64,000 bases of DNA from Patescibacteria group bacterium (GCA_022564195.1 JADFLW010000001.1:711-64710), one strand, 5' to 3'. Counted from the first letter of the stretch, positions 11,505 through 47,030 are shown. The notes: generated from the sequence alone by a model not told the origin. Translations and numbers: made by a program.

Positions 11505-11792
11505 TTGTAGTTGGTCGTTCCTTAGCGTATTGTTGACCGTTGTCGCTGCATGCTATAATGCGGTTGCCCTACGAGAGGCGTGTAAACGAGGACTATTTTC
11601 CTCCACAAATTCACGTCTTTGAGGGAGGGCGATTGCTCAAACTCCGTGGAGTTTGGGATAGCCCACCCACCTGGAATCATCTGGGGGATATCTTCTCGTT
11701 GAACGCTCACGTGGGGCTTTTGTATACTTCTTTTCCGTTGTTTTTCCAGGGGTTGTTTGGTATACTGCTGCTTGAGTTTGATTGGCACTTTT

Positions 11793-11864
11793 GCCGTCCT
11801 AGCTCAATGGTAGAGCAACGGTTTTGTAAACCGTAGGTTCCGGGTTCGAGCCCCGGGGACGGCT
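11793..11864 (+). tRNA. tRNA-Thr (anticodon TGT)
   Basis: hand-folded cloverleaf: acceptor GCCGTCC/GGACGGC, anticodon stem ACGGT/ACCGT, loop TTTGTAA, T-loop TTCGAGC. Confidence 0.8.
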
Positions 11865-11892
11865 CCCTTCCGAAAAACTCAGAACTGACTCG

Positions 11893-11974
11893 CTGGGGTG
11901 CCGGAGTGGACAATCGGACGTGTCTGTAAAACACGCGGCGTAAGCCTACGGAGGTTCGAATCCTCCCCCCAGCA
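11893..11974 (+). tRNA. tRNA-Tyr (anticodon GTA), type II with long variable arm
   Basis: hand-folded; anticodon loop CTGTAAA; T-arm GGAGGTTCGAATCCTCC; close to E. coli tRNA-Tyr in layout. Confidence 0.8.
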
Positions 11975-12022
11975 CCTTGATTAATATCATCCTCCAATGA
12001 ACTACCCCCTACATCTCAGGCA

Positions 12023-12486
12023 ATTATTGATCTTCTGCGGGAGAGGGCCTGCTGGTTTGAAACCTTTAAGCATGAGCCAGTGCGGACCAGCGAGGAGGCG
12101 GCTCGACTCCGACCTGGGTATTCGTTGAAGCAGGGGGCGAAGGCGATCATAGTCAGGGTCAAGCAGTCAAAAGCAAAGAAATTTTTCGTGATGCTGGTTC
12201 TTCCTGGGGACCTGCGGTTTGATATTAAGAAGGTAAAAGGCGTTCTTTTCTGCCAAGGATATTCGCTTTGCGACGAAGGAAGAAGTGGCGAACATTACAA
12301 ACGGCGTCGATCCTGGTGGCGTGTCTCCTGTTTGGGAATCTTTTTAACCTGCCTGTGTATACTGATCCGAAGCTCTTTGGGCAAGAAAATATTGTGTTCA
12401 ACGCTGGGGATCGGAGATTGTCAATTGCAATGCGATCCCAAGATTTCAGGAAGCTGGTTCAGCCGAAGGTAGTTGATCTGGTGTAA
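12023..12486 (+). pseudogene. YbaK/ProX-family aminoacyl-tRNA deacylase, disrupted by two +1 frameshifts at T-homopolymers (~12243-12250 and ~12341-12345); start codon unclear
   Basis: three reading frames each carry consecutive YbaK-like segments (..KKFFVMLVLPGDLRFDIKKVKGVL / AKDIRFATKEEVANITNGVDPGGVSPVWESF / NLPVYTDPKLFGQENIVFNAGDRRLSIAMRSQDF..); removing one T at each run restores one ORF. Confidence 0.6.
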
Positions 12487-12529
12487 GACGGTAGTCTGAT
12501 ATAGGAGAGCAAGTCACCAAGCACAATTT

Positions 12530-12568
12530 CCTTTTTGTTGACGCTCCGGCCGGAGCGCGTTTAAAAAG
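12530..12568. repeat. ~40 bp extended palindrome (T5-N-CGCTCCGGCCGGAGCG-N-A5GGA), copy 1 of 2
   Basis: perfect 16 bp GC palindrome flanked by complementary T-run/A-run; near-identical copy at 24150-24190. Confidence 0.6.
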
Positions 12569-12693
12569 GATTTAGGAGGCGCGTTGAATGAGGTAGGGTT
12601 CTGTTTCTTTTTATGGTTTTTGATACAATAGCGCAGAGAAGAGGGAATCTCTTGCCGGTTTAGTTCAACGGGAGACCTGCCCGCCAGATGCTT

Positions 12694-12765
12694 GCCCAGA
12701 TAGTTCAGTGGTAGAATGCCATCTTGGTAAGATGGAGGTCGAGGGTTCGATCCCCTCTCTGGGCT
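12694..12765 (+). tRNA. tRNA-Thr (anticodon GGT)
   Basis: hand-folded; acceptor GCCCAGA/TCTGGGC, anticodon loop TTGGTAA, T-arm GAGGGTTCGATCCCCTC. Confidence 0.8.
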
Positions 12766-12839
12766 CAGAACGCAAGGCAGGCGGGGCACTCCGACGTAAC
12801 GTCGGAGAGGTCGAGGGTTCAAATCCCACCTCAGGCTCT
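12766..12839 (+). other. degenerate tRNA-like fragment: duplicated 3' part of tRNA-Thr(GGT) (variable loop + T-arm + 3' acceptor strand) preceded by a perfect 9-bp-stem hairpin; no matching 5' acceptor strand
   Basis: AGGTCGAGGGTTCAAATCCCACCTCAGGCTC aligns to tRNA-Thr AGGTCGAGGGTTCGATCCCCTCTCTGGGCTC; palindrome CTCCGACGT-A-ACGTCGGAG. Confidence 0.45.
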
Positions 12840-16264: not shown

Positions 16265-16335
16265 AGGCCCGTGATGAAATGGTATCATGAGGGTCTCCAA
16301 AACCCTTCTTCCAGGTTCGAGTCCTGGCGGGCCTG
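16265..16335 (+). tRNA. tRNA-Trp (anticodon CCA)
   Basis: hand-folded: acceptor AGGCCCG/CGGGCCT, D-stem ATGA/TCAT, anticodon stem AGGGT/ACCCT loop CTCCAAA, T-arm CCAGGTTCGAGTCCTGG. Confidence 0.8.
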
Positions 16336-16352
16336 CAAAAAGATTGTAGTGG

Positions 16353-16595
16353 TTGACAGACCTAGTCGTTCGATTTACAATTCTCTACATCAATAGAACA
16401 GGAGATGCCATGGAGCATGAACCACGATCTTTTCCAGAAGGCGAACAACCAATTGAACCGGAAAAAGCAGCCATCCCAGGCATAGAGATTCTCGTTGATG
16501 CAGCAACTGGAATGACGGATCAGCAACGGTCTGAGATTGACTCAGCTCTGGTTACACCCGAAGTGCATGATATTGAAAACCCCTATTCAAGATAG
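16353..16595 (+). CDS. hypothetical small protein
   Basis: ORF track only; start uncertain. Confidence 0.3.
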   Translation: MTDLVVRFTILYINRTGDAMEHEPRSFPEGEQPIEPEKAAIPGIEILVDAATGMTDQQRSEIDSALVTPEVHDIENPYSR

Positions 16596-16685
16596 ATCAA
16601 CTTCTGATATAGTCCCTTCGATTTCACTCCCTTCGATATACTCAGGATAAACAGGATAAACCAAAAGGGCCTCACATCTCGGCTC

Positions 16686-16719
16686 TTGACAAATGTAAGA
16701 ATACTGTCATAATTCTTAC
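16686..16719 (+). promoter_or_regulatory. promoter (TTGACA -N16/17- CATAAT) with overlapping 8 bp inverted repeat GTAAGAAT..ATTCTTAC, likely autoregulatory operator of the TA operon
   Basis: hexamers and inverted repeat read directly upstream of antitoxin start. Confidence 0.5.
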
Positions 16720-16722
16720 ACT

Positions 16723-17007
16723 GTGTCCAGACAGTTGATTCAAGAAGAGGAGTTCACCAGTGTCCAGGAGGCGCAGGCCGGCATCACGCGGCTGTTTCGT
16801 AAAGCAAAGAAGCTCAAGAAGTTTTACCGCGTGATGCGTAATCAGGAGCCTTTGGGTGTGCTGGTGCCGAATGACCTGTGGTTGTCTCTCATCGAAGATT
16901 TGGAAGCGTTGTCCAGCTCCCACTATCTTTCACAGATCGAGAAGGCTCGGAAGGACAAGGGGCGGGTTTCCAGTCGGGCGGCAAAGCGGCGACTTGGCTT
17001 GCGTTAA
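16723..17007 (+). CDS. type II antitoxin (Phd/YefM or RelB-like), GTG start
   Basis: ORF track; small protein 4 nt upstream of a RelE/ParE toxin. Confidence 0.65.
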   Translation: MSRQLIQEEEFTSVQEAQAGITRLFRKAKKLKKFYRVMRNQEPLGVLVPNDLWLSLIEDLEALSSSHYLSQIEKARKDKGRVSSRAAKRRLGLR

Positions 17008-17010
17008 TTC

Positions 17011-17265
17011 ATGGACTACCAATTCACCACTTGCGCATTTCGACAACTTCAGGAGCTCCCACCTCCAGTTCAGAAACGGATTCTTGAGAAACTTGACTTT
17101 TATTGCAGGCAGAAAGAGCCGCTGCGGTTTGCAGATCGGCTGACAGATTTTCGGCTCGGAACCTACCGGTTTCGGATAGGGGAGTACCGCGTGATCTGTG
17201 ACCTTGAAGCTGAGGAAACGCTTCTTGTCCTTCTCGTCGGCCACCGAAAGGAAATTTATCGATGA
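17011..17265 (+). CDS. type II toxin, RelE/ParE family
   Basis: C-terminal ..YRFRIGEYRVICDLEAEETLLVLLVGHRKEIYR matches RelE/ParE signature. Confidence 0.8.
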   Translation: MDYQFTTCAFRQLQELPPPVQKRILEKLDFYCRQKEPLRFADRLTDFRLGTYRFRIGEYRVICDLEAEETLLVLLVGHRKEIYR

Positions 17266-17266
17266 C

Positions 17267-17306
17267 GCCTCAATTGGGTCGAGGCGGGAGGCGCGGTTGT
17301 GATTGT
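17267..17306 (+). repeat. left ~40 bp direct repeat flanking the AT-rich cassette
   Basis: gcctcaattgggtcgaggcgggaggcgcggttgtgattgt; ~80% identical to 18005-18054. Confidence 0.6.
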
Positions 17307-17341
17307 AAAATCAGTTCGATAATACACTCTCAGTAATATTT

Positions 17342-17983
17342 ATGAAGTTAACAGAATTGACTAAGGATATTTACAATGTAAATTTTCCTACACGAACGGA
17401 GTTGGCATCCACGTTCTTAAGATTTCAAGAATATTATGAATCACCTAAATTTAGAAGAAAAATATTTACACTAGCAGAGTATAAAAAGTGGTATATTGCC
17501 AACTCTCCTGGCGGTAAAAAAACCGGTAAATTTACTTATTATCAAGACTGGGGTGGATTTAATATGCCCAGTTTTGCTTTGAAGCCCTTCTATCAGGGAA
17601 AATTTAATCCTTTATCTACAAAAGAAAAGAGATTTCTTGACTTATTTAAAGATAAAAAGGGGAAGTTTTACATAATTGGCACTTATGGAAAAGTTCCTGA
17701 AAAACTTTTAAGACACGAAATTGCTCATGGATTCTTTTACACAAATTCAGAGTATAAAAACGAAGTTTTGAGAATTTTGAGAAAATTAGATAAGAAGACT
17801 AGAACAAAGATAAATGATTATTTATATTCCTCGGGCGGTTACCACCCGGAGGTTTGGGTTGACGAGACACATACGCACCTTATGAGCAATCTAGGAGAGT
17901 TAGAAAAGGCAGGTGTGAATGTTTCAAAACTTAAAGAAGTTAATAAGAACCTGAATAGCTCATTAGACAAGTATTTGAATTAA
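17342..17983 (+). CDS. hypothetical protein with HExxH motif (HEIAHGFF), AT-rich, likely horizontally acquired
   Basis: ORF track; visibly lower GC than all neighbouring genes. Confidence 0.6.
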   Translation: MKLTELTKDIYNVNFPTRTELASTFLRFQEYYESPKFRRKIFTLAEYKKWYIANSPGGKKTGKFTYYQDWGGFNMPSFALKPFYQGKFNPLSTKEKRFLDLFKDKKGKFYIIGTYGKVPEKLLRHEIAHGFFYTNSEYKNEVLRILRKLDKKTRTKINDYLYSSGGYHPEVWVDETHTHLMSNLGELEKAGVNVSKLKEVNKNLNSSLDKYLN

Positions 17984-18004
17984 TGATTCTACTCGTATTT
18001 TAGT

Positions 18005-18054
18005 GCCTCGATTGGGTCGAGACTTGAGGCGGGCAGCGCCTCTTTTGTGATTGT
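18005..18054 (+). repeat. right ~50 bp direct repeat flanking the AT-rich cassette
   Basis: gcctcgattgggtcgagacttgaggcgggcagcgcctcttttgtgattgt. Confidence 0.6.
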
Positions 18055-18068
18055 CTCTGGTTTGACGT

Positions 18069-19103
18069 TCAAAGAAAAGGATGAACTGGGTGGGATCCGT
18101 CTGTTTCTTTTGCTTGTTTGGGTTGTTCTTTGAAGAGCGCGAGTTCACCTGCGTAGACCATTTTTCCGTTTTCCGCCAGCATCAGCTTATCCTCAGGAAA
18201 ACCTGGATTTTCAAAGGCAAAATGCTGCCAGTTCGGGTTCAAGTGCGTGAACACCACCATCGTCTGGTCTGTTAGCACCTGGCGCTTTTTCAAGTTCGTG
18301 TAGAGGCGATAAATATCCTTTGGGGCAGAATGAGGCGTTGACGTGTCCCGATTATGCGGGTTTGGGCATCCGACGATGAAATAATCGAGTGGGCTGGAAT
18401 CCTTGGCGGCAAGTGCGATGTTTCTTTCTAATTTTCCTCCTTTGCCAATTTCAAAGTCAGGCATGTACAGGTATCGCTTCTTTCTGGAGTCAATGATATA
18501 TCCATAGCAAGTGTGTTTTCCTTCGAAATGACGGGGACTTCGTTGCTGGTAGGACCACTTATGCACGGCATCGAAGGGTACGAACTTCAGCCCGTCAATC
18601 TCTTCTGGTGTATTGAGAACCAGCGTATGGACGTGTAAGGTTCTGCCATCTGTTATTCTCTGGAGTCTGTGATAGATATCAGTCACTCGTGTATGGTTCG
18701 TGTTGCCCCCGGCACCTTTCGAACCGGTTGGGTCGAAGCCATTCGTGGTTAACAGGAGGTCAACAACACCCTGTGGTCCAAAAAGGTGGACTGGGTAGGT
18801 ATCCTCCTGACCAGAACCAAAATTGGCGAACCGGGAATCAAAGACTCCAGTCCACGGATGCATTGGATCGAAATGATCCATATGGCCATGGGTGACTACA
18901 AACACCGCGTCTTTATGAAATAACCAATCACCGAAGTCGCTCCAGTTTTGTGGTGTAACGTCAATGAGGTATGGCCTGCCGTCAACTACCAATAGGAGAC
19001 CGGAATGATGCCAGCCTGGCCTCGGTTCTACCGCCCCTGCACCAATAATTTGACAGAAGTTCTGAGGTTGTAAATGGCTTGTCAGGTTTTTTGCGTCCGT
19101 CAT
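18069..19103 (-). CDS. metallo-beta-lactamase-fold hydrolase
   Basis: ORF track; VVTHGHMDHFD motif. Confidence 0.7.
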   Translation of the reverse strand: MTDAKNLTSHLQPQNFCQIIGAGAVEPRPGWHHSGLLLVVDGRPYLIDVTPQNWSDFGDWLFHKDAVFVVTHGHMDHFDPMHPWTGVFDSRFANFGSGQEDTYPVHLFGPQGVVDLLLTTNGFDPTGSKGAGGNTNHTRVTDIYHRLQRITDGRTLHVHTLVLNTPEEIDGLKFVPFDAVHKWSYQQRSPRHFEGKHTCYGYIIDSRKKRYLYMPDFEIGKGGKLERNIALAAKDSSPLDYFIVGCPNPHNRDTSTPHSAPKDIYRLYTNLKKRQVLTDQTMVVFTHLNPNWQHFAFENPGFPEDKLMLAENGKMVYAGELALFKEQPKQAKETDGSHPVHPFL

Positions 19104-19145
19104 GGGCAGATATTTTGGTGCTCCTTACTATTTAACGCATAGTCT

Positions 19146-45902: not shown

Positions 45903-47030
45903 ATGTCAGCGTTTGAGTGTATGTCAGCGATCACTCAACAAGAACGGGCATATCGGGCGGCGCTGTATGAGGTTGATGGTATAGGGCCGGTGCGGATGCA
46001 GGTGCTTTTACACTACTTCGGTTCGGCGAGTGCGGTGTGGAATGTTCGTGAGAAGACGCTTTTGGAGATTGGTGTTCCTGTTGATGCGGTGGGTGAGCTT
46101 AAAAAGCGTCGTAAAACCGTCGACCCAGAGCAGCATCTTGCGGCGCTGGCAAAACTTGGGATCCGGGTTTTGGTTCCTGAAGATGAAGAGTATCCAGAAC
46201 GACTGCGCGAGATTGATAAGTCGCCGCAGGTCTTGTTTGTGCGCGGCCATTTTGATCATTCGGATCGGCGTGCGTTGGCTGTGGTGGGAACGAGGAAGCC
46301 GACCCCCTATGGTCGGGAAGTCACGCAGCGGTTGGTCGGACAGCTTGTTACCCATGGTTTTACCATTGTTTCGGGGTTGGCGCGCGGGATTGATGGGGTA
46401 GCACACCGGACAGCCCTTGAGTGTGGAGGGAGGACGATTGGGGTGCTTGGTGGAGGGGTGGATCGAGTGTATCCGCCTGAACATATTGGGCTCGCTGAGG
46501 AGGTTGCTAAGCACGGGGCGGTGATCAGCGAGTTTGCACCAGGCAAGCTTCCGGTTCCTGGGAACTTCCCAGCCAGAAACCGCATCATTTCTGGGCTTTC
46601 GTTGGGTGTGGTGGTGATTGAGGGAGCGGCACAGTCGGGAACGAAGATCACTGCCGGTCACGCTCTGGAGCAGGGAAGGGAGGTGTTTGCGGTTCCCGGG
46701 CCGATCACCAGTCAAAAGTCGGAGGCGACGGCTGATCTCATCAAAGCTGGGGCGAAGGTGGTGACGGACGTCTCTGACATCCTGGAAGAGCTTTCTTTAG
46801 AGGTCGGACCTGTATCCAGAGATGGTGATCGAAAGACTTCGATCAATTTGGACGCTTTGGAGGAAGAGGAACGGAAGGTTGTTGAGGTGTTAGCGGACGG
46901 GAATCTTCATGTTGATGATATTGTACGAGAGCTGAAGATGGAGACGGCTACGGTTTCCGCAACCTTGACCCTGCTTGAGATCAAGGGCATGGTTCGGCAT
47001 TTGGGGGGAATGGTGTACTCGAGGAGATAG
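45903..47030 (+). CDS. dprA: DNA-processing protein DprA/Smf
   Basis: ORF track; ..VVGTRKPTPYGREVT..SGLARGIDGVAH.. Rossmann-like DprA core. Confidence 0.82.
   Translation: MSAFECMSAITQQERAYRAALYEVDGIGPVRMQVLLHYFGSASAVWNVREKTLLEIGVPVDAVGELKKRRKTVDPEQHLAALAKLGIRVLVPEDEEYPERLREIDKSPQVLFVRGHFDHSDRRALAVVGTRKPTPYGREVTQRLVGQLVTHGFTIVSGLARGIDGVAHRTALECGGRTIGVLGGGVDRVYPPEHIGLAEEVAKHGAVISEFAPGKLPVPGNFPARNRIISGLSLGVVVIEGAAQSGTKITAGHALEQGREVFAVPGPITSQKSEATADLIKAGAKVVTDVSDILEELSLEVGPVSRDGDRKTSINLDALEEEERKVVEVLADGNLHVDDIVRELKMETATVSATLTLLEIKGMVRHLGGMVYSRR

What the first reader, a model, noticed from the sequence alone, without database searches (positions are those of the whole stretch)
17267..18054. AT-rich single-gene cassette (HExxH protein) bounded by ~45 bp direct repeats, next to a RelE/antitoxin pair and tRNA-Trp
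Imperfect direct repeats at 17267-17306 and 18005-18054 (gcctcRattgggtcgag..gcggg..gcgc..tgtgattgt, about 80% identical) flank a 690 bp segment. That segment has much lower GC than its surroundings and carries one ORF, 17342..17983, with an HEIAHGFF motif. The left repeat starts 2 nt after the RelE stop codon, and the right repeat ends 14 nt before the convergent MBL-hydrolase stop. The whole tRNA-Trp-proximal segment from about 16336 to 19140 looks accessory: a small ORF, the TA module, the cassette and the MBL hydrolase. No integrase lies within the window.
Basis: seen in the sequence. Interest (0 to 1): 0.65.

Follow-up and report, generated by a model that had tools for sequence, protein, structure and literature searches.

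The report
Imported gene flanked by macB-tail relics
A single AT-rich gene for an uncharacterised zinc-hydrolase-like protein was imported into this candidate-phyla-radiation bacterium, and the "direct repeats" around it are two leftover copies of the last ~17 codons of an ABC-transporter permease gene (macB) that travelled with it from another lineage.

Summary
Repeats 17267-17306 and 18005-18054 bracket a 33% GC ORF (17342-17983, HEIAHGFF) in a 51% GC window. The att-site reading fails its own test. Three contigs 99.8-99.9% identical in the flanks lack the gene and both repeats, and carry an unrelated 175 nt instead of window 17262-18059.

Read on the minus strand, the repeats encode the C-terminus of a MacB/FtsX permease (..ASRLDPIEAL[KR]YE*). 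The left copy is 29/30 identical to the real macB 3' end of a Woesebacteria-like contig. In another genome the 83%-identical gene has the same left relic, and its right "repeat" is the real end of an intact macB. Relatives of that genome have macB without the gene, some with decayed orphan macB tails.

So the repeats are imported scars of insertion at a macB 3' end. They are not sites of this locus. No recombinase was seen in the 27 window ORFs scanned.

The protein belongs to a large unannotated family (2,630 clusters at 50% identity) found in DPANN archaea, CPR bacteria, jumbo phages and 261 viral contigs. It is mislabelled "ABC transporter ATP-binding protein". Its AlphaFold model is confident but has no PDB analogue by Foldseek. 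H-E-xx-H and a downstream Glu are invariant.

The parts
16265..16336 (+). tRNA-Trp (CCA); landmark only, with no demonstrated role in the insertion
   Evidence: ARAGORN; Rfam tRNA, 59 bits
16723..17007 (+). Phd/YefM-like antitoxin candidate (94 aa)
   Evidence: PF02604, E=0.003, 17.7 bits, below the 29.8-bit cut-off. It sits 3 nt upstream of the toxin. Conserved in L001-L004.
17011..17265 (+). ParE/RelE-family toxin (84 aa). Its last sense codon and stop codon lie inside the variable segment: cgA TGA here, cgG TAG in the cassette-less allele. Both alleles give the same protein.
   Evidence: PF05016, 35.4 bits, cut-off 23. Exact protein found on L001-L003. Junction SNPs at 17262, 17264 and 17265.
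17262..18059 (.). Strain-variable segment (798 nt) made of left relic, gene and right relic. Contigs L001-L003 carry an unrelated 175 nt (L001 6252-6426) in its place.
   Evidence: Flanks are 99.8-99.9% identical up to 17261 and from 18060. The 175 nt are not similar to the cassette. The same segment with the same junctions occurs in L004 and L311.
17267..17306 (-). Left repeat: an orphaned macB/FtsX 3'-end relic. It reads ..NHNRASRLDPIEA on the minus strand, is truncated before LRYE* by the junction with the toxin stop, and contains the hairpin CGCCTCAA-TTGGG-TCGAGGCG.
   Evidence: Translation. tblastn of a MacB protein hits 17295-17266 at 100% over residues 386-395. 29/30 nt identical to the real macB tail of L306. 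Homologous to the relic upstream of the gene in L005.
17342..17983 (+). 213-aa HExxH protein (H125-E126-xx-H129; invariant Y167 and E175). Member of a large unannotated family; predicted gluzincin-like hydrolase.
   Evidence: ORF. Family alignment and invariant columns. 349 homologues with E<=1e-3. 2,630 clusters at 50% identity with E<=1e-3. AF2 pLDDT 94.7. No Pfam, NCBIfam, PADLOC or PDB match.
17989..18054 (-). Right relic, with the repeat proper at 18005-18054: a complete orphaned macB 3' end including its stop codon. It reads TITKEALPASSLDPIEALKYE* on the minus strand. It carries 7-nt and ~8-nt insertions relative to the left copy.
   Evidence: Translation. tblastn hit 18039-17992 to MacB residues 384-399, 75% identity. 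Alignment with real macB tails and orphans.
18026..18042 (+). Terminator-like hairpin GAGGCG-GGCAG-CGCCTC followed by TTTTGTG, inside the right relic. It may terminate the HExxH gene.
   Evidence: Consensus scan; fold. Function is inferred only.
18069..19103 (-). MBL-fold hydrolase (344 aa), convergent neighbour. Not part of the imported block.
   Evidence: PF12706, 30.3 bits. Present in all close relatives. Only 4 homologous clusters with E<=1e-20, and those are non-syntenic.

Best explanation
Window 17262-18059 is a horizontally imported block that segregates within this Patescibacteria population.

What it carries:
- One gene for an uncharacterised, probably zinc-dependent (HExxH...E) hydrolase. 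Its family is common in DPANN archaea, other CPR bacteria and phages.
- The block is bracketed by two orphaned copies of the last ~17 codons of a macB/FtsX-type ABC permease gene.

Shown:
- The repeats are macB-tail relics.
- They came in with the gene and were not generated at this site.
- The cassette-less allele holds unrelated DNA.
- In another CPR lineage the same gene sits tail-to-tail with an intact macB, behind the same left relic.
- macB loci of that lineage exist without the gene, some with arrays of decayed orphan tails.

Inferred:
- The gene first lodged at a macB 3' end. The route was recombination anchored in the conserved, hairpin-forming macB tail: either Campbell-type insertion of a circle or tandem unit, or homology-facilitated illegitimate recombination. 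This is the process that leaves 'displaced' 3' ends downstream of rhs and T6SS effector genes.
- A slightly longer-than-unit piece (738-nt unit plus ~50 nt of redundancy) was later taken up, plausibly by natural transformation since DprA is encoded in the window. It was joined illegitimately between the relE-like toxin and the MBL gene, replacing the intergenic DNA.
- Within the species the two alleles are then exchanged by ordinary homologous recombination of the near-identical flanks.
- The right relic now supplies a terminator-like hairpin.
- No recombinase of its own is involved.
For: Polymorphism:
- L001-L003 carry the exact toxin protein and 99.8-99.9% identical flanks, but an unrelated 175 nt instead of 798 nt.
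- L004 (98.3%) and L311 carry the block with identical junctions.
- Four assemblies carry the block and three lack it.

Identity of the repeats:
- Minus-strand translations read ..RASRLDPIEA and ..LPASSLDPIEALKYE*.
- The only tblastn hits of a 399-aa MacB in the 64 kb are the two repeats.
- The left copy is 29/30 identical to the real macB tail of L306.

Travelling with the gene:
- In L005 (83% aa identity, host GC 0.41) the gene has the same left relic..NHNHASRLDPIEALRYE*. Its right repeat is the true 3' end of an intact MacB (PF12704+PF02687).
- L009-L011 and L006-L008 (75-76% identity) each have a tail relic 5-10 nt after the stop codon.

Empty macB sites and orphan tails:
- L306-L308 have GT1 -> <- macB without the gene.
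- L306 has two decayed tails and L309 one.

Foreignness:
- Gene GC is 0.33-0.34 in hosts of 0.41-0.51.
- The closest relatives in species genomes are Woesearchaeota, at <=64% identity.
- The tail association is confined to the >=75% clade.

No mobility enzyme: 27 window ORFs were scanned and none is a recombinase. DprA lies at 45903-47030.

Precedent for one-sided homologous insertion that leaves orphaned 3' ends: PMC5361080.
Against: - The recombination mechanism itself is not observed.
- No donor-type SNP tracts flank the block. The window equals L001 right up to both junctions, so one-sided homologous anchoring at this site is not visible.
- No clear microhomology is seen at the junctions.
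- Polarity is unresolved. The block differs by 1.1% between window and L004, against 1.7% for the flanks. It therefore predates that split, and the 175-nt allele could be the newcomer.
- The right relic shares the 'TTGTGATTGT' end with the left relic rather than continuing into macB sequence. This needs a circular or tandem intermediate, or gene conversion; neither was detected.
- The left relic is robustly shared only by the window lineage and L005. L009 and L006 upstream regions are not significantly similar.
- The biochemical function of the protein is untested, and Foldseek found no zincin match in the PDB.
Confidence: 0.7

Rival explanations
1. The block is a non-autonomous, site-specifically mobile cassette. 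A ~738-bp circle carries one att-like site that mimics the conserved hairpin-forming macB 3' end. A trans-acting tyrosine, Xer-type or other recombinase integrates it, as with integron cassettes or Xer-exploiting elements. The window copy would be an off-target or secondary-site insertion.
For: - Direct repeats flank the gene in two unrelated contexts.
- The repeat contains a perfect 7-8 bp hairpin.
- In L005 the left and right copies look like the hybrid products expected from a circle recombining with the real macB tail.
- Both window copies end at the same position (..TTGTGATTGT), as if they were the same complete site.
- The junctions are identical in strains whose flanks differ.
Against: - The empty allele has no copy or half-site of the repeat. 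Conservative site-specific recombination at a non-homologous site would not duplicate ~45 nt.
- No recombinase was found in the 27 ORFs scanned.
- There is no GTTRRRY/RYYYAAC integron core at the boundaries.
- Only two copies occur in 64 kb.
- Four contexts is too few to show a target preference beyond macB.
- The repeats carry indels and decay like pseudogene fragments.
Confidence: 0.13
2. The gene is the last surviving cargo gene ('moron') of a degraded prophage or integrative element. That element used the macB 3' end as attB and carried a replacement tail in attP. The relics would be attL/attR remnants, and the remnant was later transplanted here.
For: - The family is frequent in viruses: 261 IMG/VR contigs including >200-kb phages, Xanthomonas jumbo phages XacN1 and Xoo-sp13, a 642-kb uncultured phage, and a Megaviridae structural match.
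- Serial orphan tails downstream of macB are what repeated integration and excision at a gene's 3' end would leave.
Against: - No other phage-like gene, integrase or att-flanked larger element lies next to the gene in any of the four contexts.
- The viral homologues are only 34-44% identical, while cellular DPANN/CPR homologues are closer.
- Orphan tails also occur where no foreign gene is present.
Confidence: 0.1
3. The repeats are ordinary local structure, such as terminator or REP-like hairpins or chance similarity in an intergenic region, and the gene is native.
For: - Both copies fold into GC-rich hairpins, and the right one is followed by a T-run.
- They lie between convergent genes, where terminators are expected.
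Against: - 0 of 1000 shuffles reach the alignment score.
- The copies show nucleotide-level identity to real macB tails in other genomes.
- The gene is absent from near-identical strains.
- The GC deficit is 17 points.
- There are only two copies in the window.
Confidence: 0.02

Closest known systems
C-terminal (3'-end) displacement with orphan modules in rhs, CDI and T6SS effector loci, attributed to homology-facilitated illegitimate recombination (PMC5361080 and the references it cites: Jackson 2009; de Vries & Wackernagel 2002; Prudhomme 2002)
   Same: A conserved gene body serves as the homologous anchor. The incoming DNA brings a new 3' end plus a downstream gene. The old 3' end is pushed downstream and decays, giving strings of orphaned tails. 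This pattern is seen in L306, L309, L009 and L005, and as the two relics in the window.
   Different: The gene is a macB/FtsX permease, not a polymorphic toxin. The displaced piece is only ~17 codons of a conserved tail, so it adds no functional diversification. No immunity gene is involved. In the window the relics sit at a locus with no macB at all.
Integron gene cassettes (attC) and other recombinase-in-trans cassettes, including Xer-exploiting elements
   Same: A single promoter-poor ORF bounded by imperfect, hairpin-forming repeats, next to a toxin-antitoxin pair, with no recombinase in the unit.
   Different: There is no attC architecture or GTTRRRY core, no intI, no array, and no single-site empty allele. 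The repeats are recognisable gene fragments.
Integrative elements that target the 3' end of a conserved gene or tRNA gene and carry a replacement 3' end
   Same: In L005 the target gene macB stays intact, while a displaced copy of its 3' end lies on the far side of the inserted DNA.
   Different: The insert is 0.7 kb with no integrase. The tRNA-Trp nearby is not the target. In the window neither flank is a macB gene.
Gluzincin-type metallopeptidases (HExxH plus a downstream Glu), such as minigluzincins, M48/M56 and ImmA/IrrE M78
   Same: H125, E126 and H129 are invariant on a long helix that follows a beta-strand, and D174-E175 is invariant or nearly so on a later helix. This is the secondary-structure order of a zincin core.
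   Different: There is no sequence match to any Pfam or NCBIfam peptidase family. No Foldseek PDB hit was found (best E=0.57), and IrrE appears only at E=0.12 with TM 0.18. Catalysis and metal binding are untested.

Membership tests
   L001-L003 (99.8-99.9% identical flanks) have no copy, only an unrelated 175 nt
   None among 27 window ORFs scanned, nor next to the gene in L004-L011. 30 window ORFs were not scanned.
Integron gene cassette | attC site with inverse core RYYYAAC and core GTTRRRY, next to intI/attI or within a cassette array | tested here: not met
   Neither boundary carries the core motifs. There is a single unit only, and no integrase.
MacB/FtsX permease 3' end (identity of the repeats) | Encodes the conserved C-terminal peptide ..A(S/A)RLDP(I/V)EALR(Y/H)E* and matches real macB tails at the nucleotide level | tested here: met
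   Translations. tblastn of MacB hits only the two repeats. 29/30 nt identical to the L306 macB tail. Alignment A5.
3'-end displacement / orphan-tail arrays (rhs-like, HFIR) | An intact gene followed downstream by one or more decayed copies of its own 3' end, with foreign DNA between some of them | tested here: met
   L306 has two orphans, L309 one and L009 one, and L005 has an orphan beyond the HExxH gene. This was shown in donor-like genomes, not at the window locus.
3'-end displacement / orphan-tail arrays (rhs-like, HFIR) | One junction homologous and the other illegitimate with microhomology; dependence on natural transformation | not testable with these tools
   Only DprA presence and the junction sequences are available. 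No clear microhomology is seen.
Zincin / gluzincin metallopeptidase | Invariant HExxH on a helix, plus a third ligand (Glu) on a downstream helix | tested here: met
   H125, E126, H129 and E175 are invariant in 56 sequences. Helices span 120-134 and 169-182.
Zincin / gluzincin metallopeptidase | Fold similarity to solved zincins, or a sequence match to a peptidase family | tested here: inconclusive
ImmA/IrrE (M78) or SprT-like | Match to PF06114, PF10263 or related models, or to their structures | tested here: not met
   No such Pfam hit for the protein or for any of 56 family members at E<=5. A viral IrrE model matched only at E=0.12, TM 0.18.
AbiJ N-terminal domain 5 (PF18865) | Pfam match above the gathering score; fusion to HEPN or TIR effector domains | tested here: not met
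   Only 8 of 56 members match, with a best E of 0.0026, and the window protein does not. Ten longer family members show no Pfam domain at all.
Type II toxin-antitoxin (ParE/RelE with Phd/YefM) | Toxin above the Pfam cut-off, with a small upstream antitoxin in an operon | tested here: met
   Toxin PF05016, 35.4 bits against a cut-off of 23. The antitoxin lies 3 nt upstream but scores only 17.7 bits against 29.8.

The most novel reading that the evidence does not exclude
The 738-nt unit (macB-tail mimic + HExxH gene) may be a genuine miniature mobile cassette of CPR bacteria. It would circularise and re-insert through its hairpin-forming macB-tail site, using a host recombinase supplied in trans. 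Its cargo, a family shared by jumbo phages, giant viruses, DPANN and CPR, would be a conflict-related (for example anti-defence) metallohydrolase with a previously unseen fold.
Probability: 0.12. Interest if true: 0.75.

Novelty: new variant of a known kind. Interest (0 to 1): 0.45.

Why it matters
- It gives a worked example of how genes move between ultra-small, uncultured bacteria. The scars around the gene name the kind of locus it came from (the 3' end of a macB permease gene in a Woesebacteria-like lineage). Near-identical strains show the acquisition still segregating.
- It shows that 3'-end displacement with orphan tails, known from polymorphic toxin loci, also happens at an ordinary transporter gene.
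- It flags a large family as unstudied: 2,630 clusters at 50% identity in DPANN, CPR, jumbo phages and giant viruses. The family is confidently foldable and mis-annotated as 'ABC transporter ATP-binding protein'. Its invariant HExxH...E motif makes it a good target for biochemical work.

Tried and rejected
1. Similarity between the 175-nt alternative allele and the cassette or its repeats. None was better than shuffles, so the alternative allele is not a deletion derivative. It has no Rfam match, and its fold z-scores are only -0.9 and -0.4.
2. Homology of the HExxH upstream region to macB beyond the repeat. Not significant.
3. A left relic in L009 and L006. Marginal in L009 (75/1000 shuffles) and absent in L006.
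4. A metagenome-wide and viral scan for ATTGGGTCGAGN{0,8}GCGGGNRGC. The pattern was badly chosen, because GCGGGAGGC is still macB coding sequence (ASR). The 130 fetched loci were FtsX tails of unrelated organisms or chance matches. None had the gene or the TTGTGATT extension.
5. Conserved gene neighbours of the family. There are none in 80 cellular loci. The recurrent viral neighbours only reflect synteny within one phage group.
6. An outgroup for the relE-MBL junction through MBL homologues. Only 4 clusters exist, and they are non-syntenic.
7. Function by fusion partners. Ten longer family members have no Pfam domain.
8. PADLOC, PHROGs and NCBIfam. Nothing usable.
10. A sigma-70 promoter inside the left relic was not flagged by the scan, so I make no promoter claim.

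Full report
OBSERVATION.

- The two imperfect direct repeats lie at 17267-17306 and 18005-18054.
- They align with gaps at a local score of 22, against 7.7 +/- 1.5 for 1000 shuffles; none reached 22.
- The 17-nt core GCCTCRATTGGGTCGAG occurs only at these two places in the 64 kb, even with three mismatches allowed.
- Between them lies one ORF, 17342-17983 (213 aa, HEIAHGFF).
- The ORF has 32.7% GC, the insert 35.5% and the window 50.6%.
- Upstream are tRNA-Trp (16265-16336), a weak Phd/YefM-like ORF and a ParE/RelE-family toxin (PF05016, 35.4 bits).
- Downstream, convergent, is an MBL-fold protein (PF12706).

THE EMPTY-SITE TEST. I looked up the exact toxin protein in public assemblies.

- This returned three metagenome contigs, L001-L003. 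Their flanks are 99.8-99.9% identical to the window over 3.4 kb on the left and 5.8 kb on the right.
- They lack the ORF and both repeats. Window 17262-18059 (798 nt) is replaced by 175 nt (L001 6252-6426).
- The 175 nt show no significant similarity to the cassette or to either repeat.
- The switch is sharp. The alleles differ from 17262, the third base of the toxin's last codon. Both alleles keep Arg-stop, and identity resumes at 18060, 9 nt before the MBL stop.
- A more divergent strain, L004 (98.3% identical), carries the block with the same junctions. So do L311 and a 1.4-kb contig.
- Between window and L004 the block differs at 9 of 799 positions (1.1%), similar to the flanks. The block is therefore older than that split.
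- The window's flanks equal the cassette-less L001, not L004, right up to both junctions.

The block is thus a segregating replacement polymorphism. Which allele is ancestral cannot be decided. MBL homologues are too rare and non-syntenic to give an outgroup.

WHAT THE REPEATS ARE. The closest homologues of the gene gave the answer.

The L005 context:
- In L005 the gene is 83% identical at the amino-acid level, and the host has 41% GC. The motif ATTGGGTCGAG again lies on both sides of the gene.
- There the right copy is the real 3' end of an intact, convergent MacB permease (PF12704+PF02687). It reads ..APAIRASRLDPIEALRYE* on the minus strand.
- The left copy is an orphan reading ..NHNHASRLDPIEALRYE*.

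The window copies:
- The window's right copy reads TITKEALPASSLDPIEALKYE*, with the stop codon at 17989-17991.
- The left copy reads ..NHNRASRLDPIEA and is cut by the junction with the toxin stop.
- A tblastn of the 399-aa MacB against the whole window hits only these two spots. The window has no macB gene.

Relatives of the L005 macB:
- Searching with that MacB gave contigs L306-L308. There the same glycosyltransferase and macB are convergent neighbours with no HExxH gene between them. This is the empty site for the L005 context.
- The real macB tail of L306 is GCCTCAATCGGGTCGAGGCGGGAGGCGCGG. It is 29/30 identical to window 17267-17296.
- L306 also carries two decayed orphan tails between the glycosyltransferase and the real tail. 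L309 carries one.
- L009-L011 (75% identical gene, also next to macB) and L006-L008 (76%, no macB nearby) each have a tail relic 5-10 nt after the gene's stop codon.
- Among 80 more distant family members from species genomes, none has a macB or a tail relic nearby.

The repeats are therefore orphaned macB 3' ends that belong to the history of this particular gene clade in Patescibacteria.

HOW IT PROBABLY HAPPENED (inference). Arrays of orphaned 3' ends behind an intact gene are the signature of 3'-end displacement.

- In that process the incoming DNA is anchored by homology in the conserved gene and joined illegitimately at its other end. Alternatively a circle or tandem unit carrying a copy of the tail recombines with the resident tail.
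- This is the explanation given for rhs and T6SS effector loci (PMC5361080).
- L005 has exactly the expected products. The orphan on the far side continues into the HExxH upstream DNA (..GGTTGTGATTAT..). The macB-side copy continues into macB.
- The window block is one 738-nt unit plus about 50 nt of terminal redundancy. Its right copy is complete: stop codon, LKYE, hairpin, and the same ..TTGTGATTGT end as the left copy. Its left copy lacks the stop-proximal part.
- This arrangement is most simply a longer-than-unit piece of a tandem or circular form, joined illegitimately into the relE-MBL spacer. Gene conversion between the copies is an alternative.
- No recombinase or transposase was found among the 27 window ORFs scanned. 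The surroundings are core genes: NusG, 6S RNA, rpoD, truB, RNase HII, fmt, mreB. DprA, the transformation mediator, is encoded at 45903-47030.
- Uptake of DNA followed by recombination is therefore the most economical route, but it is not demonstrated. No donor SNP tracts or clear microhomologies are visible.
- The right relic contains a hairpin plus T-run (18026-18042) that could now terminate the gene.

THE PROTEIN.

Size and spread of the family:
- 349 homologues with E<=1e-3 in the 90%-clustered collection.
- 2,630 clusters at 50% identity with E<=1e-3, of which 1,123 have E<=1e-30.
- 128 species genomes, mostly Woesearchaeota, Nanoarchaeota and Pacearchaeota, plus Parcubacteria and Saccharibacteria and a few Bradyrhizobium.
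- 261 IMG/VR viral contigs, including several over 200 kb.
- Xanthomonas jumbo phages XacN1 and Xoo-sp13 and a 642-kb uncultured phage.

Annotation and structure:
- Depositors call it 'ABC transporter ATP-binding protein'. I read this as a misnomer, because no library supports it.
- It has no Pfam, NCBIfam, PHROG-with-function, PADLOC or PDB sequence match.
- A 56-sequence alignment shows invariant R27, F28, E30, W50, Y51, D69, H125, E126, H129, Y167 and E175.
- The AlphaFold2 model is confident (pLDDT 94.7, pTM 0.88). It has a small sheet, a helix carrying HExxH (120-134) and a later helix carrying D174-E175. This is the order expected of a gluzincin core.
- Foldseek finds nothing in the PDB (best E=0.57). 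In BFVD it finds only one uncharacterised Megaviridae protein (E=1.2e-6, TM 0.58/0.70).
- Weak AbiJ_NTD5 hits in 8 of 56 members are below threshold.
- Longer family members have no recognisable extra domains.
- Cellular loci share no conserved neighbour.

I therefore call it a probable zinc-dependent hydrolase of unknown substrate. The virus-rich distribution hints at a role in virus-host or symbiont-host conflict, but that is speculation.

COMPARISON AND NOVELTY.

- It works like 3'-end displacement and orphan formation at rhs, CDI and T6SS loci. Here, however, it happens at a housekeeping-type macB permease, with tiny non-diversifying tails, and the relics were then carried to a locus that has no macB.
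- It is not an integron cassette: no attC core, no intI, no array.
- It is not an att-flanked insertion of this site, because the empty allele has no repeat.
- It cannot be filed under ImmA/IrrE or SprT.
- I rate it a new variant of a known kind. As a mechanism it is of moderate interest. The unannotated protein family adds some value.

CAVEATS.
- All comparative sequences are metagenome contigs.
- Polarity of the polymorphism is open.
- The recombination steps are inferred from end products.
- Thirty window ORFs were not scanned for recombinases.

Noticed in passing
window 11563-11721 (+): 6S/SsrS RNA (Rfam RF00013, 48.3 bits, gathering score 46.4). It lies upstream of a tRNA-Thr/Tyr/Thr cluster (11793-12766).
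   Followed up: partly
L001 6252-6426 (the allele that replaces window 17262-18059): The 175-nt alternative intergenic allele contains a perfect 12-bp inverted repeat (GTGTCTAGTGAA ... TTCACTAGACAC/T) enclosing a second hairpin (CCACTC-CCG-GAGTGG). It has no Rfam match, and its fold energy is not unusual (z -0.9). Its origin and role are unknown.
   Followed up: partly
window 45903-47030 (+): DprA (PF02481 + DprA_WH), the recombination mediator of natural transformation. This is relevant to how foreign DNA could enter this genome.
   Followed up: no
L306 5201-5297; L309 3650-3702; L009 6572-6629; L006 6646-6700: Decayed 'orphan' copies of the macB 3' end (type TTTACTCATA.CG.A.TGCCTCGATACTTCGA..A.CTCAG...) lie downstream of macB in Woesebacteria-like contigs, with or without the HExxH gene. 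L306 has two in tandem. macB tails seem to be a recurrent recombination spot in this lineage.
   Followed up: partly
window 17447-17506 vs L005 1241-1300: A 60-nt stretch is 100% identical (and the next 60 nt 93% identical) inside genes that are otherwise ~83% identical at the nucleotide level, with neighbouring windows at 62-70%. This suggests mosaic recombination between cassette variants, or strong local constraint.
   Followed up: no
L006/L007 (samples ERZ24945681, ERZ23499034); protein P0003 = MCH7952046.1: A 76%-identical paralogue of the HExxH gene sits in a different context (M23-like gene upstream, host GC 0.46). It occurs in the same two samples that hold the cassette-less strain. 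Its GenBank accession is only ~900 away from the window's MCH7951132.1. It may belong to the same MAG or to a co-resident organism, so a donor pool is at hand.
   Followed up: no
window 16961-17053 vs L004 28-116: About 25 substitutions and a 4-nt indel cluster at the antitoxin 3' end and toxin 5' end between window and L004. The rest of the flank is ~98-99% identical. The TA junction looks like a divergence or recombination hot spot.
   Followed up: no
L311 887-931 (equivalent to window ~18216): One cassette-bearing strain has a 43-nt insertion in the MBL gene that splits it into 55-aa and 311-aa ORFs. The MBL gene may be decaying in part of the population.
   Followed up: no
L095 (Xanthomonas phage XacN1, 306771-307415): The jumbo-phage homologue (31.5% identity over the tblastn match), annotated 'ABC transporter ATP-binding protein', lies directly after a MazG pyrophosphohydrolase gene in a run of unannotated ORFs.
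   Followed up: no
proteins P0182, P0211, P0233, P0260 and others: Some family members are 350-734 aa long, with the HExxH domain at the C-terminus or in the middle. The extra regions have no Pfam match, so these are possible new fusion partners.
   Followed up: partly
window 16410-16595 (+): A small acidic ORF (61 aa as called in relatives) lies between tRNA-Trp and the TA pair. It is conserved in L001-L003 and has no family match in Pfam, NCBIfam or PADLOC.
   Followed up: partly
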